From positions 1 to 64,000 of IMG/VR virus record IMGVR_UViG_3300020057_001229: 64,000 nucleotides of DNA; one strand, written 5' to 3'. Each line of letters opens with the position of its first letter. Within the stretch, counting starts at the first letter, position 1. This document shows, piece by piece, positions 1,982 through 52,385 of the stretch. The DNA is from a virus. The notes beneath the pieces were generated by a model. It ran no database searches, was not told where the DNA came from, and was given only the letters and a program-made list of their open reading frames with translations. The translations under genes were made by a program, and so were the position numbers.

Positions 1982-3136
1982 TTCCTTCTGAAAGAAGCCC
2001 CCGTCCTCCGAGGGCGGGGATGAATTTCAGTTAGTTAAAACCTGAAATCAGTGTAATATAGTTCCATGTTTCTAACCTACAACTTCAGAGTCAAAGACGC
2101 TTCTACCAAGAACCTTCTGAAGAGAATGGCTTCTGACACAAACTTCGTTTGGAACTTTTCAAACAACATAGTCAAAGACAACTGGCAGAAATCTAGAAAA
2201 TATACCTCTAAGTATGATTTGAACCCTCTCTTAAAGGGAAGTTCTAAATACCTTAATATAAACTCGCAGACAATCCAAGCTGTAGCTCATGAATGTGTTT
2301 TGAGGACACAGAAAGCAAAGAAATAAGTCAGATTCAGAACCGCAAAAAGAAACTTGGGGTGGGTTCCAATAAACGGGCAGACCTTCAAACTCCAAGGCTC
2401 AACTCTCATTTATAATAAGAAATACTTCAAACTTTGGAAATCTAGAGACCTGCCTAAAGACGCCCTTATTAAAACAGGATGCTTCTCCCAAAACTCTGAA
2501 GGAAAGTGGTTTTGTAATATAACGTTTGAAACTAAGCTTCTAGCTCGGAAAGCCCCCGAAAGGGAAGTCGCTCTAGATCTCGGTTTAAAAACCCTCTACA
2601 CAACTTCAGACGGTTTAAAGTACGAACTGAGAGTTAATAACACTAAGAAATATGCTTTAAAGCTGGCTAAAGCGCAAAGAGCTAAGAAGAAAAAACAAGT
2701 TACTAAGATCCACACCAAAATTAAGAACTCTAGAAAAGACTGGAACCACAAAGAAACCACAAAACTAGCATCGAATTACAACCTTATTTTCGTCGGAGAC
2801 GTAAGTTCTAAGGCGCTGAAGAAAACTAAGATGGCGAAGTCTGTTTCAGACGTAGCCTGGTTTCAGTTTAAAACTTTCCTGAAGTATAAAGCTATTAAGC
2901 ACTCAGGAGAGATGCATGAAATTAAAGAAAGATTTTCCACAGTAACTTGCTCGGTTTGCCTGTCGAAGACAGGTCCGAGCGGACTAAGAAACTGTGGAGT
3001 AAGAGATTGGATATGCAGCGGTTGTGGCTCTAGCCATGACAGAGATACAAACGCTGCTTCAAACATTCTCCGTTTCGGGCATGAAACGCTTAACTTAAAA
3101 GGAATCCCACGGCTAAAGCCGTGGGGAGGATGTCAA
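1982..3136 (+). mobile_element. IS200/IS605-family (tnpB-only, IS1341-type) element
   Basis: Follows TTAG; left-end hairpin CCCCGTCCT-CCG-AGGGCGGGG; right end GGAATCCCACGGCTAAAGCCGTGGGGAGGATGTCAA; removing it restores ...PGTLKA* for the flanking minus-strand ORF. Confidence 0.9.
2066..3136 (+). pseudogene. tnpB: TnpB RNA-guided nuclease interrupted by an in-frame TAA at 2324-2326
   Basis: ORFs 2066-2326 and 2354- are in the same frame; TYNFR N-terminus, ALDLGLK, CSVC/CSGC zinc ribbon, HDRDTNAA. Confidence 0.9.
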
Positions 3137-3583
3137 CGTACCTGGACGTTCAAACATCTGCTTAAGCCTAAGGCTCTCTGCCGTAATGCGGTAGAAAAGT
3201 TGATCGGCGTAGGTGCCGTAGGTGGTAGCTGCATACGCTGTGCGGAAGCCTGCGTAAGTCATGCGTTCATAAATACGGTACGCATCTTCGACCTTGAAGT
3301 AGGTCACTTCGTTAAGTGCCGTCTCCAAGTTCTCAAGGGAGAGCGTAGCCGTATCTATAGAATCACAAAGAGCCGAGTAGGTGTTTACACAACCTACCGG
3401 CGAACGGATGTCGGTGTAGTCAAGGCGAAGTGTCGTAAGCGAGCTTAAAGCTTCAGCACGACGGAACCAACGGGGATCATTCTCAACCGGAGCTTCAGGC
3501 GTAGGAGCTGAATCACTCTTCTTAGAAGAGCTACCGCAAGACACTAAAAATGTGAGACAGCACAAAGCTACAAGCCTACGCAC
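3113..3583 (-). CDS. Putative lipoprotein; C-terminus altered by the IS insertion
   Basis: Signal peptide and lipobox-like LVSC. Confidence 0.6.
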   Translation of the reverse strand: MRRLVALCCLTFLVSCGSSSKKSDSAPTPEAPVENDPRWFRRAEALSSLTTLRLDYTDIRSPVGCVNTYSALCDSIDTATLSLENLETALNEVTYFKVEDAYRIYERMTYAGFRTAYAATTYGTYADQLFYRITAESLRLKQMFERPGTLTSSPRL

Positions 3584-34683: not shown

Positions 34684-34759
34684 GTCCACGTAATCCAACG
34701 GCAGAGATAGAGCGCTTAAAACGCTTCCAGCGTGGGTTCGAATCCCACCGTGGACACCA
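34684..34759 (+). tRNA. tRNA-Leu(UAA) with short variable loop
   Basis: 76-nt cloverleaf; loop CTTAAAA; A73 + CCA. Confidence 0.88.
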
Positions 34760-41034: not shown

Positions 41035-41829
41035 TCATCCGCTCGATAGACCCGTCGAAGATGAATCTTGAGCCCTGCGAATGACTGGAATTTGGGATCT
41101 TAAGAAATCCCTGTTTTGGGTAAACACTGGAATATTATTATCAAGCACAAACCCCTCATCTTTAGGGGACTTAACAACCATTCGCCCCCTTTTCTGATAG
41201 ATTGGCAGATCGTTCCAGTTGATCCCCTTTGCCATTAGCATGTCGTGCATATTAGAGCAGTTCTTACCTTCTAGCTCTTTATGAGAATAAAGGCTTCTAG
41301 CCATCATCTGAAGGCTGTTGCGGGAGGCGTCTTGCTGCCGCCAAATGAAGTAGTTTTCTACCTCGATGGGGTCCGCAATTGTGAAGACTCTAGAATCGAA
41401 AAGAGCTATTTTGAATGTATCTTGAGAGCTTCGGAACCGGTTAGGAGCAAACGGAAAATCGTGGACCGATCCCTCACTTTGGAAACGGTTGTTAAAAGCC
41501 GCCGTAGCTACAGACGCACTTATTGAACAGATCTTCTGTATGTTGCCGTCAAAATAAGCGTCGGTGTTGTCGTTGCCGAAGTCTGTCATGAGAACCGAGA
41601 TTTCGTCGCTTTGTGTATACGAAAAGACCGCTCCGCTTAATGTCGTGCAAAGCAGATCGGCAGCGGCGTCCATGGAGCAAACAAGGCTGTCATCAATGGG
41701 GAAGTTCATTCCCTTCGTGAACGTATGGAAGGCTTTGCCGTCGATCCTGACCACCGTATACGTCCGCCGTGGCAAAAAGTAACGGGTGCGGTTTTCGTAG
41801 TTGCCTTTCATCCGGTCGCCGAGTTCCAT
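41035..41829 (-). CDS. Thg1-like (tRNA-His guanylyltransferase / 3'-5' polymerase) protein
   Basis: RIDGKAFH, YTQSDEIS, FDSRVF, YFIWRQQDA.RNS, KGINWN..P...KRG. Confidence 0.93.
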   Translation of the reverse strand: MELGDRMKGNYENRTRYFLPRRTYTVVRIDGKAFHTFTKGMNFPIDDSLVCSMDAAADLLCTTLSGAVFSYTQSDEISVLMTDFGNDNTDAYFDGNIQKICSISASVATAAFNNRFQSEGSVHDFPFAPNRFRSSQDTFKIALFDSRVFTIADPIEVENYFIWRQQDASRNSLQMMARSLYSHKELEGKNCSNMHDMLMAKGINWNDLPIYQKRGRMVVKSPKDEGFVLDNNIPVFTQNRDFLRSQIPVIRRAQDSSSTGLSSG

Positions 41830-42647
41830 CGTCGAGGTCGCCTTTCTTTTACTTCGCTTACGTTACCCAAAGACCAGACGAGGTTCTCATCTATGTGGAG
41901 AAGCTGCAAGATATTTACGAGATGGTCTTCCTTCGGCACGTCTTTGTCGGAGTGAATGCAAATGCTGAAAAGCTTCTTGTCTGGAGTTCTTACCTTTACG
42001 GTGCCAAAGTACGGAATGACGTAGTAACCACGGACGCCTTGGAAGCCGACGAACTTTCTAACTACGAAGCGTTTGTAGTCCGCCTCCGAGATCATGTCCC
42101 GCAACGACAGTCGTGCTCTGAGGTCTGCACCGGGAAGCTTGACCTTCTTTGCCTTGCTTTCGTAGAGAGCCCGCATCTTCATTATCACATCGTCGTCGTC
42201 AAAATATTTGGCGGGCTTGTGCTTGCGGACTAAGCGGTCCTTCAAACTTTTAAGCGGGTTGCGGTAAAACTTGCCGTTTTCAACCAAAACTACGTAGCGT
42301 TCTAGCGACTGCAAAACCGTGTTCATGTTGGGGTGTATGAGGGGAGCAGATTGGGTCTCGTCAAGCTTTTGAAAGCTCGTGATGTAGCCTTCCTCGATTC
42401 CAAAGTTGAGGTCTTCGGACAGGATGCGGAAGCACTGCGTACCTTCGACCATGAATGTGCAAGCCTCGAAAGCTAAGCCAGCGATGCTCGTAACCGTACC
42501 GTCAGCATTTTTGATGTAGTCTTCGTGGACGAACTCGGGGTTGGTGACGTGAAGCTCGATGTCGGTACGACGCAAGATGTCTTCAAGACGAAGCCCGATG
42601 TCACATGCTGGTTGCATAATAGCTGCTGGTTGTGTACTGGTAGGCAT
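41808..42647 (-). CDS. Hypothetical protein
   Basis: Long ORF; start approximate. Confidence 0.6.
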   Translation of the reverse strand: MPTSTQPAAIMQPACDIGLRLEDILRRTDIELHVTNPEFVHEDYIKNADGTVTSIAGLAFEACTFMVEGTQCFRILSEDLNFGIEEGYITSFQKLDETQSAPLIHPNMNTVLQSLERYVVLVENGKFYRNPLKSLKDRLVRKHKPAKYFDDDDVIMKMRALYESKAKKVKLPGADLRARLSLRDMISEADYKRFVVRKFVGFQGVRGYYVIPYFGTVKVRTPDKKLFSICIHSDKDVPKEDHLVNILQLLHIDENLVWSLGNVSEVKERRPRRWNSATG

Positions 42648-43060
42648 AGACTTTCCCGTGCAAATTTTAGGCTGAATGGTGTACAATAGTACATCCACGC
42701 CTCGAACACTAAGTCAAAGATAAACCAAAGGAGTCGCCAACTTATGCCAATTGCAAAACGACTTTTAGCGAAAGCTGCCGCCCTCAGTCAGCTCGTAAGC
42801 ATCGAGGCTGAGAGCCTCTTTAGGATGTTCGAGAGACGCAACTACCGTGAGCAAGAAGTCGAGCGGATTCTTACGTGCTTCAAAGATATGGGAGCTAACC
42901 CTGAGAACCTAGAAGGCGAACGCAGGCGTCTATTGGAAGATGATCTCTACTTAGAGTCATGGCAGGAAGCGACATCTGCGTAAAAAATACGCAAAAGAAA
43001 AAAGCGAACGACACCGAAAAAGCTCTTGCACTCTTCGAGTGGTTCACTTAAAACCTTCCT

Positions 43061-43712
43061 TGTCGGAAGCACTGAAGCAAACGTCGCAAGACAAGCCTGC
43101 TTCGGGGACTGAGAAGAGATAAGGCTTTAAATCGTGCTTTCTCAAAATCGAGCCGACACTCGGTTGAGTTAGGGTTTAACTCAATGAAAAGCATTGGTGA
43201 CAATGCAAGTCGAACTTGTGACAAGACAAGCCTTAAAATTTGTCAGAGATCAGGTTCAACTAAAAACTCCCTCGAAGATATCAAATTCGAGGCAAGCCGA
43301 CTCTTGAACTGTAGAGGTTCAAGGCGTAACTGGAGATAGACAGCTTGCGGCTCTCCATGGGGAGAAAGAGTTTGACATCGTTCAAGCTCCCGGATCTTGA
43401 AAATCCGGACCTCTGAAACCCGTCCAGACATGACGTAAAAATGTACGCTTCTCGCTCAAAGGGTTAAACCTACGAGCAAACTATAAGGTTCCCTGTAAGG
43501 GACGTTAAAGGAGAAGGGCGATGGCGGAGAAAAGTTGGGATTGTAATTCTAGACCGATCATCTGGAATATCTAAACGCCCCCAACAGAGAGACAACTCTT
43601 CAAACAATCGGAACTGCAACAGGGATTAATTATCCCGCCTTCGGCTAAGAGGATTAGTGCTCATCTTAGGGTGAGCCGAGTTAGCCAGGAGTGTAACGGT
43701 CCTAGTTCCGCG
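43061..43712 (+). ncRNA. Large structured non-coding RNA candidate (~650 nt), unassigned
   Basis: No credible ORF; more than 12 hairpins; upstream TTGCAC-N17-TAAAAC; 3' domain closed by CGGAACT/AGTTCCG. Confidence 0.7.
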
Positions 43713-43717
43713 TCCGA

Positions 43718-43755
43718 GGAAGCCCGCTTAGGTTTACAGACCTAAGCGGGCTTCC
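43718..43755 (+). terminator. 16-bp perfect hairpin after the large ncRNA
   Basis: GGAAGCCCGCTTAGGT-TTACAG-ACCTAAGCGGGCTTCC; weak U-tract. Confidence 0.65.
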
Positions 43756-43838
43756 AACATTTAATTTGGCTTGCTTGAGCATCGTGCTGACACTACTCTC
43801 AGGCGTCTGAAGACATATCCGAGTAGAGGGTTGCCGAC

Positions 43839-45329
43839 ATGCTGAAGGCAGTGCTGCGCATAGGAGGTGGTTTAGTCGCCGTGTTCGGTGTCGTGCTGGT
43901 GACGTACACACTTAAGAGGATAGACTCTTACCTCGCGGACACACCCCTGCTTCTAGGCATATCTTCGCTTACGCTGATCGCGTTTTTCTTCGGCTGGTGG
44001 TCCGCCGTCATCTCCGCGCTTGCTTTTATTACCCTCATTAAGCTCTACGTTTCGCCAGAAATCCACACGGTGTCTTTCAGTCTTTTTGTCGCTCAGACTG
44101 CGATCATTGCGGGGCTCATCGAGAAGCTAGGTAACGCACGCCGTAGCTGCTCAGACGAAGCTACCAAATGCCAAGAGACCGAACACGAGCTTCGAGCCGC
44201 AAAAGAGCACGCAGAAAGATCTAACCAGACTAAGGGAGAATTTCTAGCCAACATGAGCCACGAGCTTCGCACTCCTCTCGGTGTCATTCTAGGCTACAGC
44301 GAAATCATAGCGAACGACACGCCTTCAAAGGAAGAGAAGATAGAATATGCTGACGCTATTAAGCGCAATGGTGAAACGTTAGCCAGATTGATAGATGACA
44401 TACTTGACCTAAGTCTTGCAGAAGCACAAAAGATAAGTATTGAAATACTACCTACATGCCTTAAAGATCTATGTACAGTTTTAGAAAAAGAGATGACGCC
44501 TCTAGCTGTACTAAAAAATATACGATTAAAGGTACACTGCGCCGATGTTCCTAATAACATACGCACTGACCCAATTCGTCTTAGACAAATACTTAGCAAT
44601 CTAGTTAACAACGGTATTAAATTCACCCCTTACGGAGGTGAAGTAAGCGTGTATGTGGAAAAATATGAAGAGACGCTATGCTTCGTCGTTCGGGACAATG
44701 GTAAGGGAATTTCTACTGAAGAAGCTAAGAAGCTTTTCAAGCCCTTCTCACAAGCCGACAGCTCTACGACGCGGAAATATGGGGGGACAGGCTTAGGCTT
44801 AGCGCTTTCTAAAAAGCTTGCTCAAAGCCTTGGCGGGGATGTTTTTTTGCGGGAAAGCGTTCCCGGCAAAGGGAGCACATTCGTTGTTCAAATCCACTTG
44901 ACGCCGACATCCTTGCACGAGACCAAGAGCAAGCATAAACATTTTGACGGCGCTCTCGACGGTGTCCGAGTCCTTCTTGCCGACGATGCCTTCGATAACA
45001 GACTGCTTTTGAAAGCGCTTTTGAAGCCAACGGGTGCGCTGCTTCGACTAGTGGAAGACGGCGAGCAAGCGCTTCAAGCTGTGCAACAGCACGACTTTGA
45101 CGTTGTTTTCTTAGATCTTCAAATGCCTATAATGGACGGCTACGAAGCTTGCCGTGCGCTGAGAAGTCAAGGCTACACAAAACCTATCATCGCTTTGACC
45201 GCGCACGCTATGCAGGAAGAAAGAACCAAAACGAAGACTGCTGGGTTCGATGCCCATGTCACTAAGCCGGTCAACGTCGGAAACCTCGTGAGCGCAATTC
45301 GTGCCTCGCTCGACGCCAAACCGAGTTAG
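43839..45329 (+). CDS. Membrane-bound hybrid sensor histidine kinase with receiver domain
   Basis: FLANMSHELRTPL, NLVNNGIKFT, DNGKG, GGTGLGL, LADD...FLDLQMPIMDG...KP. Confidence 0.95.
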   Translation: MLKAVLRIGGGLVAVFGVVLVTYTLKRIDSYLADTPLLLGISSLTLIAFFFGWWSAVISALAFITLIKLYVSPEIHTVSFSLFVAQTAIIAGLIEKLGNARRSCSDEATKCQETEHELRAAKEHAERSNQTKGEFLANMSHELRTPLGVILGYSEIIANDTPSKEEKIEYADAIKRNGETLARLIDDILDLSLAEAQKISIEILPTCLKDLCTVLEKEMTPLAVLKNIRLKVHCADVPNNIRTDPIRLRQILSNLVNNGIKFTPYGGEVSVYVEKYEETLCFVVRDNGKGISTEEAKKLFKPFSQADSSTTRKYGGTGLGLALSKKLAQSLGGDVFLRESVPGKGSTFVVQIHLTPTSLHETKSKHKHFDGALDGVRVLLADDAFDNRLLLKALLKPTGALLRLVEDGEQALQAVQQHDFDVVFLDLQMPIMDGYEACRALRSQGYTKPIIALTAHAMQEERTKTKTAGFDAHVTKPVNVGNLVSAIRASLDAKPS

Positions 45330-45430
45330 TCAGGAGTGTGACGGTCCTATTTCCAACCAGGGGTTCTGGGATAAAATTGAGGTACAAAAAAAGGAGGCAT
45401 AGCCTCCTTTTTCTTCGCGCCTCTAATGAC

Positions 45431-45886
45431 TTACTCCGTAAAGAGCATGACGTTGATGCGGCGGTTGAGTTCCTCGAAGAGCAGTTGCGTCTTAGCGAGA
45501 TGCAATGCTAGGTCAGCGTAGCGACCAGCGAACGGACGAAGCTGCGTGCGTGTGTGCAGCCACTCAGAGCGAAGCTCGTAGAACGAGTCGCCGATATCGT
45601 AGGTCCCGTAACCATCTTGCGCACCGTTCAGCGCCTTCGAAAGGTAACGACCGTGGCTCTTCACCGACTGCACTTCGTCCGTGAAATGGACGATGCGGTT
45701 GTTGTTCGAGACAACATTGAAAAGCTTTTGAACTTCGCGATTGAAGTTCTGACTCGCCGTGATGGCGTCTTGGGACGTGAGCTGAACGCTTTGGACCGAT
45801 GATTGGTCCTGCGTACCGGTCTCGGCTACGCCGTAAGCGGCTGGGAGGGCGAGAGCGAACGCAAAGGCAACTTTCAACAACTTCAT
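45431..45886 (-). CDS. Secreted hypothetical protein
   Basis: MKLLKVAFAFALALPAAYGVA signal; GGAGG SD. Confidence 0.65.
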   Translation of the reverse strand: MKLLKVAFAFALALPAAYGVAETGTQDQSSVQSVQLTSQDAITASQNFNREVQKLFNVVSNNNRIVHFTDEVQSVKSHGRYLSKALNGAQDGYGTYDIGDSFYELRSEWLHTRTQLRPFAGRYADLALHLAKTQLLFEELNRRINVMLFTE

Positions 45887-51668: not shown

Positions 51669-52141
51669 AAATCGTAAAAGAGAAATATCAAATTGTAGCC
51701 AAAGATTGGTCTAACGAAACATATTGGGCTTGCTTCGCTTTCGAAGACGAGATCCCCGACGACCTCCACTGCACGCACAAGTTCTTCGGTGAACAAAGCG
51801 ACGAAAGCCGGGACAAGATCTTGGAGACGATGGATTCTTACTTCGCCAAGAAACCTTACGAGACCATCCAAGCCAAGTTTGACCACGAAGAGTTCTTCGG
51901 GGCTGATAAAGACGTTCGGGTTCTTCGGCTTGAGGACGGCGCTAGCCTCGATCCGTTTCTTCTCGATCTCCGCAAGAAGCTTGACGCTTTCGCCGACGAC
52001 AGCTTCCCCGGCTACAAGCCGCACGTCACGACGGACCTCCCCGTAGTCGAGAAGCCTCTGACACGCTACTGTCTTTGTCAGGGTGACAAGATTATCAAGG
52101 AGTGGAAAGCAATGGAGAAAAAAGCAGCAGCAGCAGCTTAG
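51665..52141 (+). CDS. 2H phosphoesterase (Acb1/LigT-like)
   Basis: Two HxT motifs: LHCT and YKPHVT; KYQIVA leader; ATGA overlap at 51665. Confidence 0.8.
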   Translation: MKIVKEKYQIVAKDWSNETYWACFAFEDEIPDDLHCTHKFFGEQSDESRDKILETMDSYFAKKPYETIQAKFDHEEFFGADKDVRVLRLEDGASLDPFLLDLRKKLDAFADDSFPGYKPHVTTDLPVVEKPLTRYCLCQGDKIIKEWKAMEKKAAAAA

Positions 52142-52307: not shown

Positions 52308-52385
52308 TCCGGTGTGGGGGAAGTTGGTAATCCCGCCTCGCTGTTACCGAGGAGCATGTACGTTCGATCCGTACCACCGGAGCCA
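52308..52385 (+). tRNA. tRNA-Asn(GUU)
   Basis: Cloverleaf; loop CTGTTAC; G73 + CCA. Confidence 0.92.

What the first reader, a model, noticed from the sequence alone, without database searches (positions are those of the whole stretch)
43026..43755. ~650-nt highly structured non-coding RNA with its own promoter and terminal hairpin
Seen: an ORF-free stretch in a gene-dense region, with hairpins including GAAGCA/TGCTTC, TTGAGTTA/TAACTCAA, GCATTG-GTGA-CAATGC, CCTCGAA/TTCGAGG, CTTGAAC/GTTCAAG, CCGGAT/ATCCGG, GGGAT/ATCCC and GCTCATC-TTAG-GGTGAGC, plus long-range CTTCTC/GAGAAG, GGGCG/CGCCC and CGGAACT/AGTTCCG. Established: GOLLD and ROOL are large ornate RNAs of tRNA-rich phages. I cannot assign the class by eye; it may be new.
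Basis: partly seen in the sequence, partly recalled or inferred. Interest (0 to 1): 0.75.

Follow-up and report, generated by a model that had tools for sequence, protein, structure and literature searches.

The report
Orphan 700-nt structured phage RNA candidate
A large uncultured phage from a microbial mat carries a roughly 700-base stretch with no gene in it that folds into many hairpins and turns up in RNA libraries from such mats, so it is probably a big non-coding RNA of a kind not yet catalogued, though no relatives could be found to prove its shape.

Summary
42984-43838 is the longest stretch of the 88.7-kb virus record without an ORF of 70 codons or more. It is hairpin-dense (top 1% of windows) and folds well below shuffles (z -6.6 on +, -5.3 on -).

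Rfam 15 gives nothing: no GOLLD, ROOL, OLE, HEARO, intron, RNase P or tmRNA.

Contigs of three RNA-seq runs from one microbial-mat study match 43061-43725 at 97-99%.

A variant phage differs at 10.9% of 43061-43179 and at 12 of 105 third-codon positions in a fragment of the adjacent kinase gene. It differs at only 0.7% of 43180-43725.

Weak points:
- No homologue beyond these near-identical variants turned up in any collection I could search.
- Only one clearly compensatory pair was seen (43076/43101).
- A permutation test was not significant.
- The proposed promoter is poor and the terminal hairpin is not a canonical terminator.

Best reading, 0.5: a stable, trans-acting, + strand large ncRNA of about 700 nt of an uncatalogued class, working like GOLLD/ROOL but a member of neither. 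Rivals are a leader of the kinase gene with a 17-codon ORF, and a transcribed spacer with no function.

The parts
43026..43054 (+).
   Evidence: It occurs once in the window. It was not flagged by the sigma-70 scan. By my count it matches 3 of 6 and 4 of 6 positions. RNA-library contigs begin to match 7-9 nt after it, which is a hint only.
43061..43757 (+). Candidate large non-coding RNA; the ends are inferred, not mapped
   Evidence: ORF-free. Fold z -6.6. MFE -250.7 on + against -239.8 on -. On + there are 20 hairpin loops and 128 of 268 unpaired bases are A. RNA-run contigs cover 43061-43725, 43063-43705 and 43073-43560. No Rfam hit.
43061..43179 (+). Variable 5' domain, holding hairpin 43073-43104 with an inner GCAA-capped stem and a possible hairpin 43110-43144
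   Evidence: 13 differences in 119 nt (10.9%) in the variant shared by runs X4, X5, X7 and X6. 43076 A>G with 43101 T>C is compensatory, and 43079 A>G turns A-U into G-U.
43180..43717 (+). Near-invariant body: a chain of hairpins and two multi-branch domains
   Evidence: 4 differences in 546 nt (0.7%) in run X6, and 0-1 in the RNA runs. Helices with pair probability above 0.8 are listed.
43521..43574 (+). 17-codon ORF (MAEKSWDCNSRPIIWNI) behind AAGGAG-7 nt-ATG
   Evidence: 8 of the 10 such sites in the window head ORFs of 90-264 codons. In the fold the AAGGAG lies in helix 43449-43453/43511-43515.
43676..43709 (+). First copy of a 34-nt direct repeat, inside the RNA's 3' part
   Evidence: 31 of 34 identical to 45321-45354, with 0 such matches in 100 shuffles.
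43718..43755 (+). Terminal hairpin: 16 perfect pairs plus one G-U, loop UACA, tail AACAUUUAAUUU
   Evidence: Not a canonical terminator by the scan.
43839..45329 (+). Hybrid histidine kinase with receiver domain, lying between the two repeat copies
   Evidence: Pfam HisKA, HATPase_c and Response_reg; phrog_20458.
45321..45354 (+). Second, diverged copy of the 34-nt repeat; it holds the kinase stop codon
45391..45415 (+). Canonical A-tract/hairpin/T-tract terminator after the second repeat copy; possibly the RNA's original terminator
   Evidence: Read from the sequence and folded. That it was the RNA's terminator is inference.

Best explanation
The stretch encodes a stable, highly folded non-coding RNA of about 700 nt, read rightward from about 43061 to the 17-bp hairpin at 43718-43755. 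The hairpin caps the 3' end rather than acting as a textbook terminator. The RNA has a fast-evolving 5' domain of about 120 nt and a near-invariant body of about 550 nt made of some twenty hairpins.

I think it acts in trans as a free RNA or RNA particle during infection, in the manner of the large phage RNAs GOLLD and ROOL, whose own function is still unknown. It belongs to neither family.

Shown: non-coding, hairpin-dense, present in RNA libraries, body conserved.
Inferred: strand, ends, stability, trans action.
Speculative: self-assembly, or any link to the phage's tRNA and Thg1 genes.
For: - Longest ORF-free stretch of the record. None of 10 short ORFs in or overlapping it matches Pfam or PHROGs at E up to 0.1, and none of the 8 looked up is in the 15-billion-protein collection.
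- Fold z -6.62, with 0 of 20 shuffles as good. Window 43051 ranks 2nd of 252. Hairpin count is in the top 1.1% and summed stem length is the record's maximum.
- Contigs of 506-582 nt in three RNA-seq runs of one study lie on 43061-43725 with 4-13 differences.
- Between the window and run X6 the body 43180-43725 differs at 4 of 546 positions. A 317-nt kinase fragment differs at 16 listed positions, 12 of them third-codon and synonymous, and 43061-43179 differs at 13 of 119.
- 43076/43101 changes A-U to G-C, and 43079 changes A-U to G-U, which pairs only on the + strand.
- The + strand is favoured: MFE -250.7 against -239.8; 2 GNRA tetraloops against 0; 48% of unpaired bases are A. Both flanking genes are also on +.
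- A 34-nt piece of the 3' part is duplicated 1.6 kb downstream around an inserted kinase gene. From established knowledge, this is what is seen where elements integrate into the 3' ends of tRNA and tmRNA genes.
- Context: Thg1 lies 1.2 kb upstream and the window holds 15 tRNA genes. Kretsch et al. (bioRxiv 10.1101/2024.12.08.627333, passages read) describe GOLLD and ROOL as phage and prophage RNAs, often near tRNA islands.
Against: - No homologue exists beyond variants about 97-99% alike, so no covariation test was possible.
- Of the 16 variant positions, 3 keep pairs, 3 are unpaired and 10 break pairs of the predicted MFE. Five of the 10 are in pairs with probability above 0.9; three of those five are the 43177-43179 block, which looks like a small indel.
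- The variant's 5' domain is no more stable than randomly placed substitutions of the same kinds: p 0.25 for MFE and 0.16 for ensemble energy.
- The low divergence of the body could be a recent recombination tract rather than selection. The change of rate at about 43180 is abrupt, and the X6 contigs need not come from one strain.
- Without the terminal hairpin the stretch ranks only 11th of 252 windows.
- The promoter is poor and the 3' hairpin is not a canonical terminator.
- All RNA evidence comes from assembled contigs of one study. These cannot give strand, ends or level, and an RNA library can hold DNA (notes).
- A well-placed ribosome-binding site heads a 17-codon ORF inside the RNA.
Confidence: 0.5

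Rival explanations
1. It is a long cis-acting leader of the histidine-kinase gene. Transcription starts upstream, the 17-codon ORF at 43521 is translated, and ribosome traffic or folding decides whether RNA polymerase passes the 43718-43755 hairpin into the kinase gene. What accumulates is the processed leader.
For: The RNA is on the same strand as the kinase gene, with no canonical terminator between them. AAGGAG-7-ATG heads the mini-ORF, and 8 of the 10 such sites in the window head real genes. In the fold the ribosome-binding site is sequestered in a helix. Earlier notes of this scan report leader-peptide switches before this phage's tRNA genes (I did not test them).
Against: The mini-ORF stops 143 nt before the hairpin, too far for classical attenuation (read). 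At about 780 nt it would be an exceptionally long leader. The 34-nt repeat suggests that the kinase gene was inserted behind an RNA that already existed. The mini-ORF has no run of any one codon.
Confidence: 0.17
2. It is a spacer with no function of its own: leftover, hairpin-rich DNA at a recombination hot spot. It is transcribed by read-through, and its stable hairpins let fragments survive long enough to be assembled from RNA libraries.
For: There are no homologues anywhere. Substitutions are not significantly structure-preserving. The divergence is mosaic, and a repeat-bounded cassette lies next to it. The promoter is weak.
Against: The body differs at 0.7% where neighbouring synonymous sites differ at about 11%. 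It is the longest ORF-free stretch of a densely coding record. A-rich loops, GNRA loops and an energy asymmetry fit an RNA read on one strand.
Confidence: 0.18
3. The functional transcript is on the - strand, as one or more antisense or small RNAs.
For: The - strand also folds well (z -5.26). The only promoter-like sites (3) and terminator-like sites (2) that the scan found lie on the - strand.
Against: Those counts do not exceed the shuffles: 3 against 1.4 (sd 1.2), and 2 against 1.6 (sd 1.1). The - strand energy is weaker, it has no GNRA loops and its loops are U-rich. The 43079 change would make a C-A mismatch on the - strand.
Confidence: 0.07
4. It holds one or more small protein genes, and the hairpins are incidental.
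For: A 17-codon ORF with a strong ribosome-binding site, and ORFs of 49-62 codons.
Against: No family match for any of 10 short ORFs. None of the 8 looked up is in the protein collection. The nine single-base differences of the 5' domain fall 2, 3 and 4 on the three residues of position modulo 3, which is my count. Together the short ORFs would leave most of the 855 nt unexplained.
Confidence: 0.05

Closest known systems
GOLLD RNA (Rfam RF02032)
   Same: Large (600-800 nt), many-hairpin, phage-encoded RNA in a tRNA-rich phage. Its 3' part is more conserved than its 5' part. [quoted passage not shown]
   Different: No match to the GOLLD model in the stretch even at E up to 10, nor anywhere in the record (0 matches, 10 candidates scored). 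The same search found two diverged full-length GOLLD-like matches (57 bits) in other Thg1-bearing phages. The nearest tRNA genes are about 8.3 and 8.5 kb away, not adjacent.
ROOL RNA (Rfam RF03087)
   Same: About 600 nt, in phages and prophages, often near tRNA islands, very abundant in at least one host, function unknown. This stretch was likewise assembled from small RNA libraries of about 100 million letters.
   Different: No match to the ROOL model. In one search nothing rang in any of the 42 records or the controls, so that search had no positive control.
tRNA and tmRNA genes as integration sites
   Same: A short piece of the RNA gene's 3' part is repeated on the far side of an inserted gene. 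The upstream copy is continuous with the RNA, and the downstream, diverged copy is followed by a canonical terminator.
   Different: There is no integrase between the repeats, only the kinase gene. The RNA is not tRNA-like. That the repeat arose by site-specific integration is inference.
Leader-peptide attenuators
   Same: A short ORF with a good ribosome-binding site inside a folded RNA upstream of a gene.
   Different: No codon run and no terminator next to the ORF's stop, and the RNA is several times longer than any such leader.

Membership tests
GOLLD (RF02032) | Match to the family's covariance model at or above the gathering score (150 bits) | tested here: not met
   No hit at gathering, none at E up to 10 on 42900-43900, and 0 matches in the whole record. 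Positive control: the same search gave 57-bit full-length matches in 2 of the 41 other records.
GOLLD (RF02032) | Lies in a phage or prophage, often next to tRNA genes | tested here: inconclusive
   It is a virus record with 15 tRNA genes in the window. The nearest clusters end at 34759 and begin at 52308, each more than 8 kb away.
GOLLD / ROOL | Self-assembly into a multimeric RNA cage | not testable with these tools
   Known from cryo-EM. No tool here predicts RNA quaternary structure.
ROOL (RF03087) | Match to the family's covariance model at or above the gathering score (99.1 bits) | tested here: not met
   (0 of 42 records; no positive control rang).
Other catalogued large RNAs (OLE, HEARO, raiA, RNase P, tmRNA, group I/II introns, rRNA) | Match to any of the 4227 Rfam 15 models | tested here: not met
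   5 matches at E up to 10. The best is 13.5 bits (E 0.19, archaeal RNase P, gathering 84) and covers only the terminal hairpin. ARAGORN found no tmRNA.
Structured non-coding RNA (generic) | No coding capacity | tested here: met
   The one exception is the 17-codon ORF.
Structured non-coding RNA (generic) | Folding energy beyond shuffles and beyond the genome background | tested here: met
   It weakens to rank 11 of 252 when the terminal hairpin is cut.
Structured non-coding RNA (generic) | Compensatory base changes across relatives | tested here: inconclusive
   One compensatory pair and one A-U to G-U change, against 10 positions that break MFE pairs. Permutation p 0.16-0.25. Only one variant lineage was available.
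Structured non-coding RNA (generic) | Transcribed as a discrete RNA | tested here: inconclusive
   Contigs in three RNA libraries of one study hold it. Contigs give no strand, ends or level.
Sigma-70 promoter / intrinsic terminator | Consensus hexamers; GC-rich stem followed by a T run | tested here: not met
   One search found none on the + strand in 42500-44300. Control: the scan flagged the tRNA-Asn promoter and terminator.

The most novel reading that the evidence does not exclude
This is the founding member of a third class of giant phage RNAs beside GOLLD and ROOL. It would be an abundant, self-folding particle of about 700 nt made by an orphan lineage of large, tRNA-rich mat phages. Its body would be under near-complete sequence constraint, and its gene's 3' end would serve, like a tRNA or tmRNA gene, as a landing site for gene cassettes.
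Probability: 0.3. Interest if true: 0.78.

Novelty: new variant of a known kind. Interest (0 to 1): 0.55.

Why it matters
Only a handful of bacterial and phage RNAs longer than 500 nt are known, and GOLLD and ROOL have just been shown to build RNA-only cages of unknown use.

A further, unrelated large RNA from a phage whose neighbouring genes have no relatives at all would show that such RNAs arise repeatedly in tRNA-rich phages. It would also give a new object for structure work.

The repeat-bounded kinase gene behind it would add a case of an RNA gene other than tRNA or tmRNA used as an insertion site. If instead it is a leader or a spacer, it is ordinary.

Tried and rejected
Homologue hunt (all negative):
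- blastn, distant mode, of 42990-43790 against 50,697 phage records: no match.
- Three exact DNA patterns in IMG/VR: 0 hits each.
- Neighbouring proteins of 296, 79 and 1049 aa in IMG/VR: pattern matches, but none confirmed as a relative.
- The 296-aa protein against 5.8 billion clusters: only itself.
- Exact look-up of 8 ORFs in or overlapping the stretch: none in the collection. The 79-aa ORF is alone in its cluster.
- A 24-mer from the invariant core in the metagenome collection: 0 hits.
- A gapped pattern built on the internal 11-mer repeat: 88 metagenome stretches, of which 80 are listed in the part of the output I see, and 19 GTDB loci. nhmmer found nothing at E up to 1 among the 107 loci numbered L081 and above then on file (which also include my own record's L188 and L189), and blastn found only 17-34-nt pieces, so I take these as chance or unrelated repeats.
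- Thg1 gave 78 IMG/VR loci at 40-56% identity. nhmmer found nothing at E up to 10 and blastn only 15-33-nt pieces.
- BLAST of the RNA against 41 of the whole records behind those loci (I gave 43 handles; 2 were not held): best E 0.05 on 17 nt.
- A covariance model R1 of 43164-43323, built from this one sequence given twice with its MFE structure, found only itself in 42 records.
- Earlier findings of this scan: no look-alike in other genomes.

Other dead ends:
- Rfam on 7 Thg1 loci gave only tRNAs and one tmRNA. Rfam on the rest of the record gave nothing.
- No tandem duplication of domains.
- Near-matches of the terminal hairpin arm at 3244 and 28787 lie in ordinary sequence and are not hairpins.
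- The ESM Atlas gave no usable lead for the 79-aa neighbour.
- One search was wasted. I recalled RF01998 as GOLLD; it is group-II-D1D4-1, and it matched 0 of 41 records.

In the three RNA runs no contig lay on 42300-43048 or 43798-45500 except pieces of 35-42 nt on conserved kinase and receiver motifs, which run on unlike. DNA run X6 also covered 43576-43848, 44772-45088 and 45367-45482. The RNA contigs start to match at 43061, 43063 and 43073, while the X6 DNA contig of the same variant reaches 43043. This is one study, with loose ends, so it is a hint at most. Contig depths (6.1-23.8) are not expression levels. I draw nothing from them, on habitat or otherwise.

Literature. Three searches turned up no description of a comparable RNA in a Thg1- or kinase-bearing phage. 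For Kretsch et al. (10.1101/2024.12.08.627333) I read passages. For Fremin et al. (PMC10690425) I read passages; its candidates are 29-151 nt, and its supplements, which I could not see, might hold a fragment of this stretch. All other papers were seen as search listings only.

Full report
WHAT IS THERE. The window is the first 64 kb of an 88,687-nt IMG/VR virus record, estimated 32% complete, from a microbial-mat assembly. The window holds 15 tRNA genes.

Genes around the finding:
- 41035-41829 (-): a Thg1-type tRNA-His guanylyltransferase.
- 41808-42698 (-): a 296-aa protein with no family.
- 42744-42983 (+): a 79-aa protein with no family.
- The ORF-free stretch.
- 43839-45329 (+): a hybrid histidine kinase with a receiver domain.

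CHECK OF THE OBSERVATION. 42984-43838 (855 nt) is the longest stretch of the whole record not covered by an ORF of 70 codons or more; the runner-up is a 507-nt tRNA block. Recoding stops opens no convincing frame.

The region has 6 perfect hairpins of 6 bp or more, against 1.8 (sd 1.35) per 740-nt window, which puts it in the top 1.1%. It has the largest summed stem length of the record. It folds at -257.9 kcal/mol against -209.3 (sd 7.3) for shuffles, z -6.6; the opposite strand gives z -5.3. Against other 700-nt windows of the same record, corrected for GC, window 43051 ranks 2nd of 252. The window that cuts the terminal hairpin ranks 11th, so a good part of the signal is that one hairpin.

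His promoter is a 7-of-12 match that the scan did not flag, and the terminal hairpin lacks a T run.

WHAT IT IS NOT. Rfam 15 gives only tRNAs in the window at gathering scores. On 42900-43900 at E up to 10 it gives five trivial matches; the best is 13.5 bits on the terminal hairpin alone.

A direct search with the GOLLD model found nothing in this record. It did pick up two diverged, full-length GOLLD-like matches (57 bits, below the 150-bit cut-off) among 41 other Thg1-bearing phage records, so the model can reach diverged members. The ROOL model found nothing anywhere, so that search lacks a positive control. No tmRNA was found. None of ten short ORFs in or overlapping the stretch matches Pfam or PHROGs, and none of the eight I looked up is in the protein collection.

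RNA LIBRARIES. The word index found the stretch in 15 of 16 listed runs from 11 studies. Six are on record as RNA, and three DNA runs may be the source.

I laid 42300-45500 on three RNA runs of one study and one DNA run:
- X4 (RNA): contigs of 146 and 582 nt on 43061-43175 and 43153-43725.
- X5 (RNA): contigs of 137 and 563 nt on 43063-43172 and 43145-43705.
- X7 (RNA): one contig of 506 nt on 43073-43560.
- X6 (DNA): contigs on 43043-43582, 43576-43848, 44772-45088 and 45367-45482.

These are contigs. They show that the sequence is in RNA libraries, not its strand, ends or level, and the libraries could hold DNA.

VARIATION. All four runs share one variant with 13 differences, all within 43076-43179. 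X6 adds 43395, 43475, 43653 and a 1-nt deletion at 43412. So 43061-43179 differs at 10.9% and 43180-43725 at 0.7%. In X6's 317-nt kinase fragment, 12 of 16 listed differences are at third-codon positions and synonymous, which is about 11% of third positions. At that rate about 62 changes would be expected in the body, and 4 are seen.

This fits strong constraint, but an abrupt boundary like this is also what a recent recombination tract looks like. The X6 contigs also need not be from one strain.

On structure:
- 43076 A>G with 43101 T>C turns A-U into G-C in the stem that both the MFE and the centroid predict.
- 43079 A>G gives G-U, which is tolerated only on the + strand.
- Ten other positions break pairs of the single-sequence MFE. 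Five of them are in pairs with probability above 0.9, and three of those five are a block at 43177-43179 that reads like a small indel.
- In the variant's own fold, 43119, 43132 and 43144 extend or keep a hairpin at 43110-43144 (my reading of the structure printed).
- The variant is not more stable than random placements of the same substitutions: p 0.25 and 0.16.

Covariation is therefore unproven.

STRAND AND ENDS (inferred). The + strand is favoured by several lines:
- energy: -250.7 against -239.8;
- two GNRA tetraloops against none;
- A-rich unpaired positions, 128 of 268;
- the G-U change at 43079;
- the orientation of both neighbouring genes.

With a 5' end at 43061 the fold closes with a helix 43063-43067/43713-43717 just before the terminal hairpin.

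THE 3' REPEAT. 43676-43709 recurs at 45321-45354 with 31 of 34 identical; 0 of 100 shuffles give such a match, and the window holds no third copy. The repeat does not extend further.

Between the copies lie the terminal hairpin and the kinase gene, whose stop codon is inside the second copy. After the second copy comes a canonical bidirectional terminator. I confirm the repeat. The mechanism is inference, and there is no integrase between the copies.

A MINI-ORF. AAGGAG-7 nt-ATG at 43508-43523 heads a 17-codon ORF. The pattern occurs 10 times in the window against 2.6 expected. Eight of the ten head ORFs of 90-264 codons; the other mini-ORF, of 9 codons, sits before the tRNA-Asn leader region. 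This keeps a leader or dual-function reading alive.

HOMOLOGUES. None was found; every search is listed under Tried and rejected.

VERDICT. A real, non-coding, hairpin-dense element that is present in RNA libraries and has a strikingly conserved body. Most likely (0.5) it is a stable large ncRNA of an uncatalogued class that works like GOLLD or ROOL but is a member of neither. Rivals:
- kinase leader with a translated mini-ORF, 0.17;
- transcribed spacer without function, 0.18;
- - strand RNA, 0.07;
- small protein genes, 0.05.

It is worth a stranded-read and diverged-copy follow-up before any stronger claim.

Noticed in passing
window 43676-43709 and 45321-45354: A 34-nt direct repeat (31 of 34 identical) brackets the RNA's terminal hairpin and a hybrid histidine-kinase gene. 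The second copy supplies the kinase stop codon and is followed by a canonical terminator at 45391-45415. It looks like a cassette inserted into the RNA gene's 3' end, with no integrase present.
   Followed up: partly
window 43521-43574: A 17-codon ORF (MAEKSWDCNSRPIIWNI) behind AAGGAG-7 nt-ATG lies inside the RNA. 8 of the 10 such sites in the window head real genes. A second mini-ORF of 9 codons, at 52112, sits just before the tRNA-Asn leader region.
   Followed up: partly
window 2354-3448: An ORF matching transposase families (phrog_506, E 4e-54). The 700-nt window starting at 2801 is the most structured of the record on the + strand (z -3.0). I did not look for an element-borne guide RNA or structured element end.
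   Followed up: no
G034:C1:19323-19755 (+) = L198; G016:C1:102772-103171 (-) = L199: Two Thg1-bearing IMG/VR phage records hold full-length matches to the GOLLD model at 57 bits (E about 1e-15), far below the 150-bit cut-off. They may be a diverged GOLLD lineage.
   Followed up: no
L024 17735-18120: A phage contig with a Thg1 gene carries a tmRNA (105 bits) inside a block of tRNA genes.
   Followed up: no
window 43087-43098 and 43222-43233: An exact 12-nt internal repeat, CAAGACAAGCCT, each copy just 3' of a small stem. By my estimate about 0.02 such repeats are expected by chance in 740 nt. Two hairpins with CCGAC-containing loops (43149-43162, 43292-43305) also resemble each other.
   Followed up: partly
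window 43839-45329: A phage-borne hybrid histidine kinase (HisKA, HATPase_c, receiver) with an N-terminal part that looks membrane-bound. No partner regulator gene was seen next to it.
   Followed up: no
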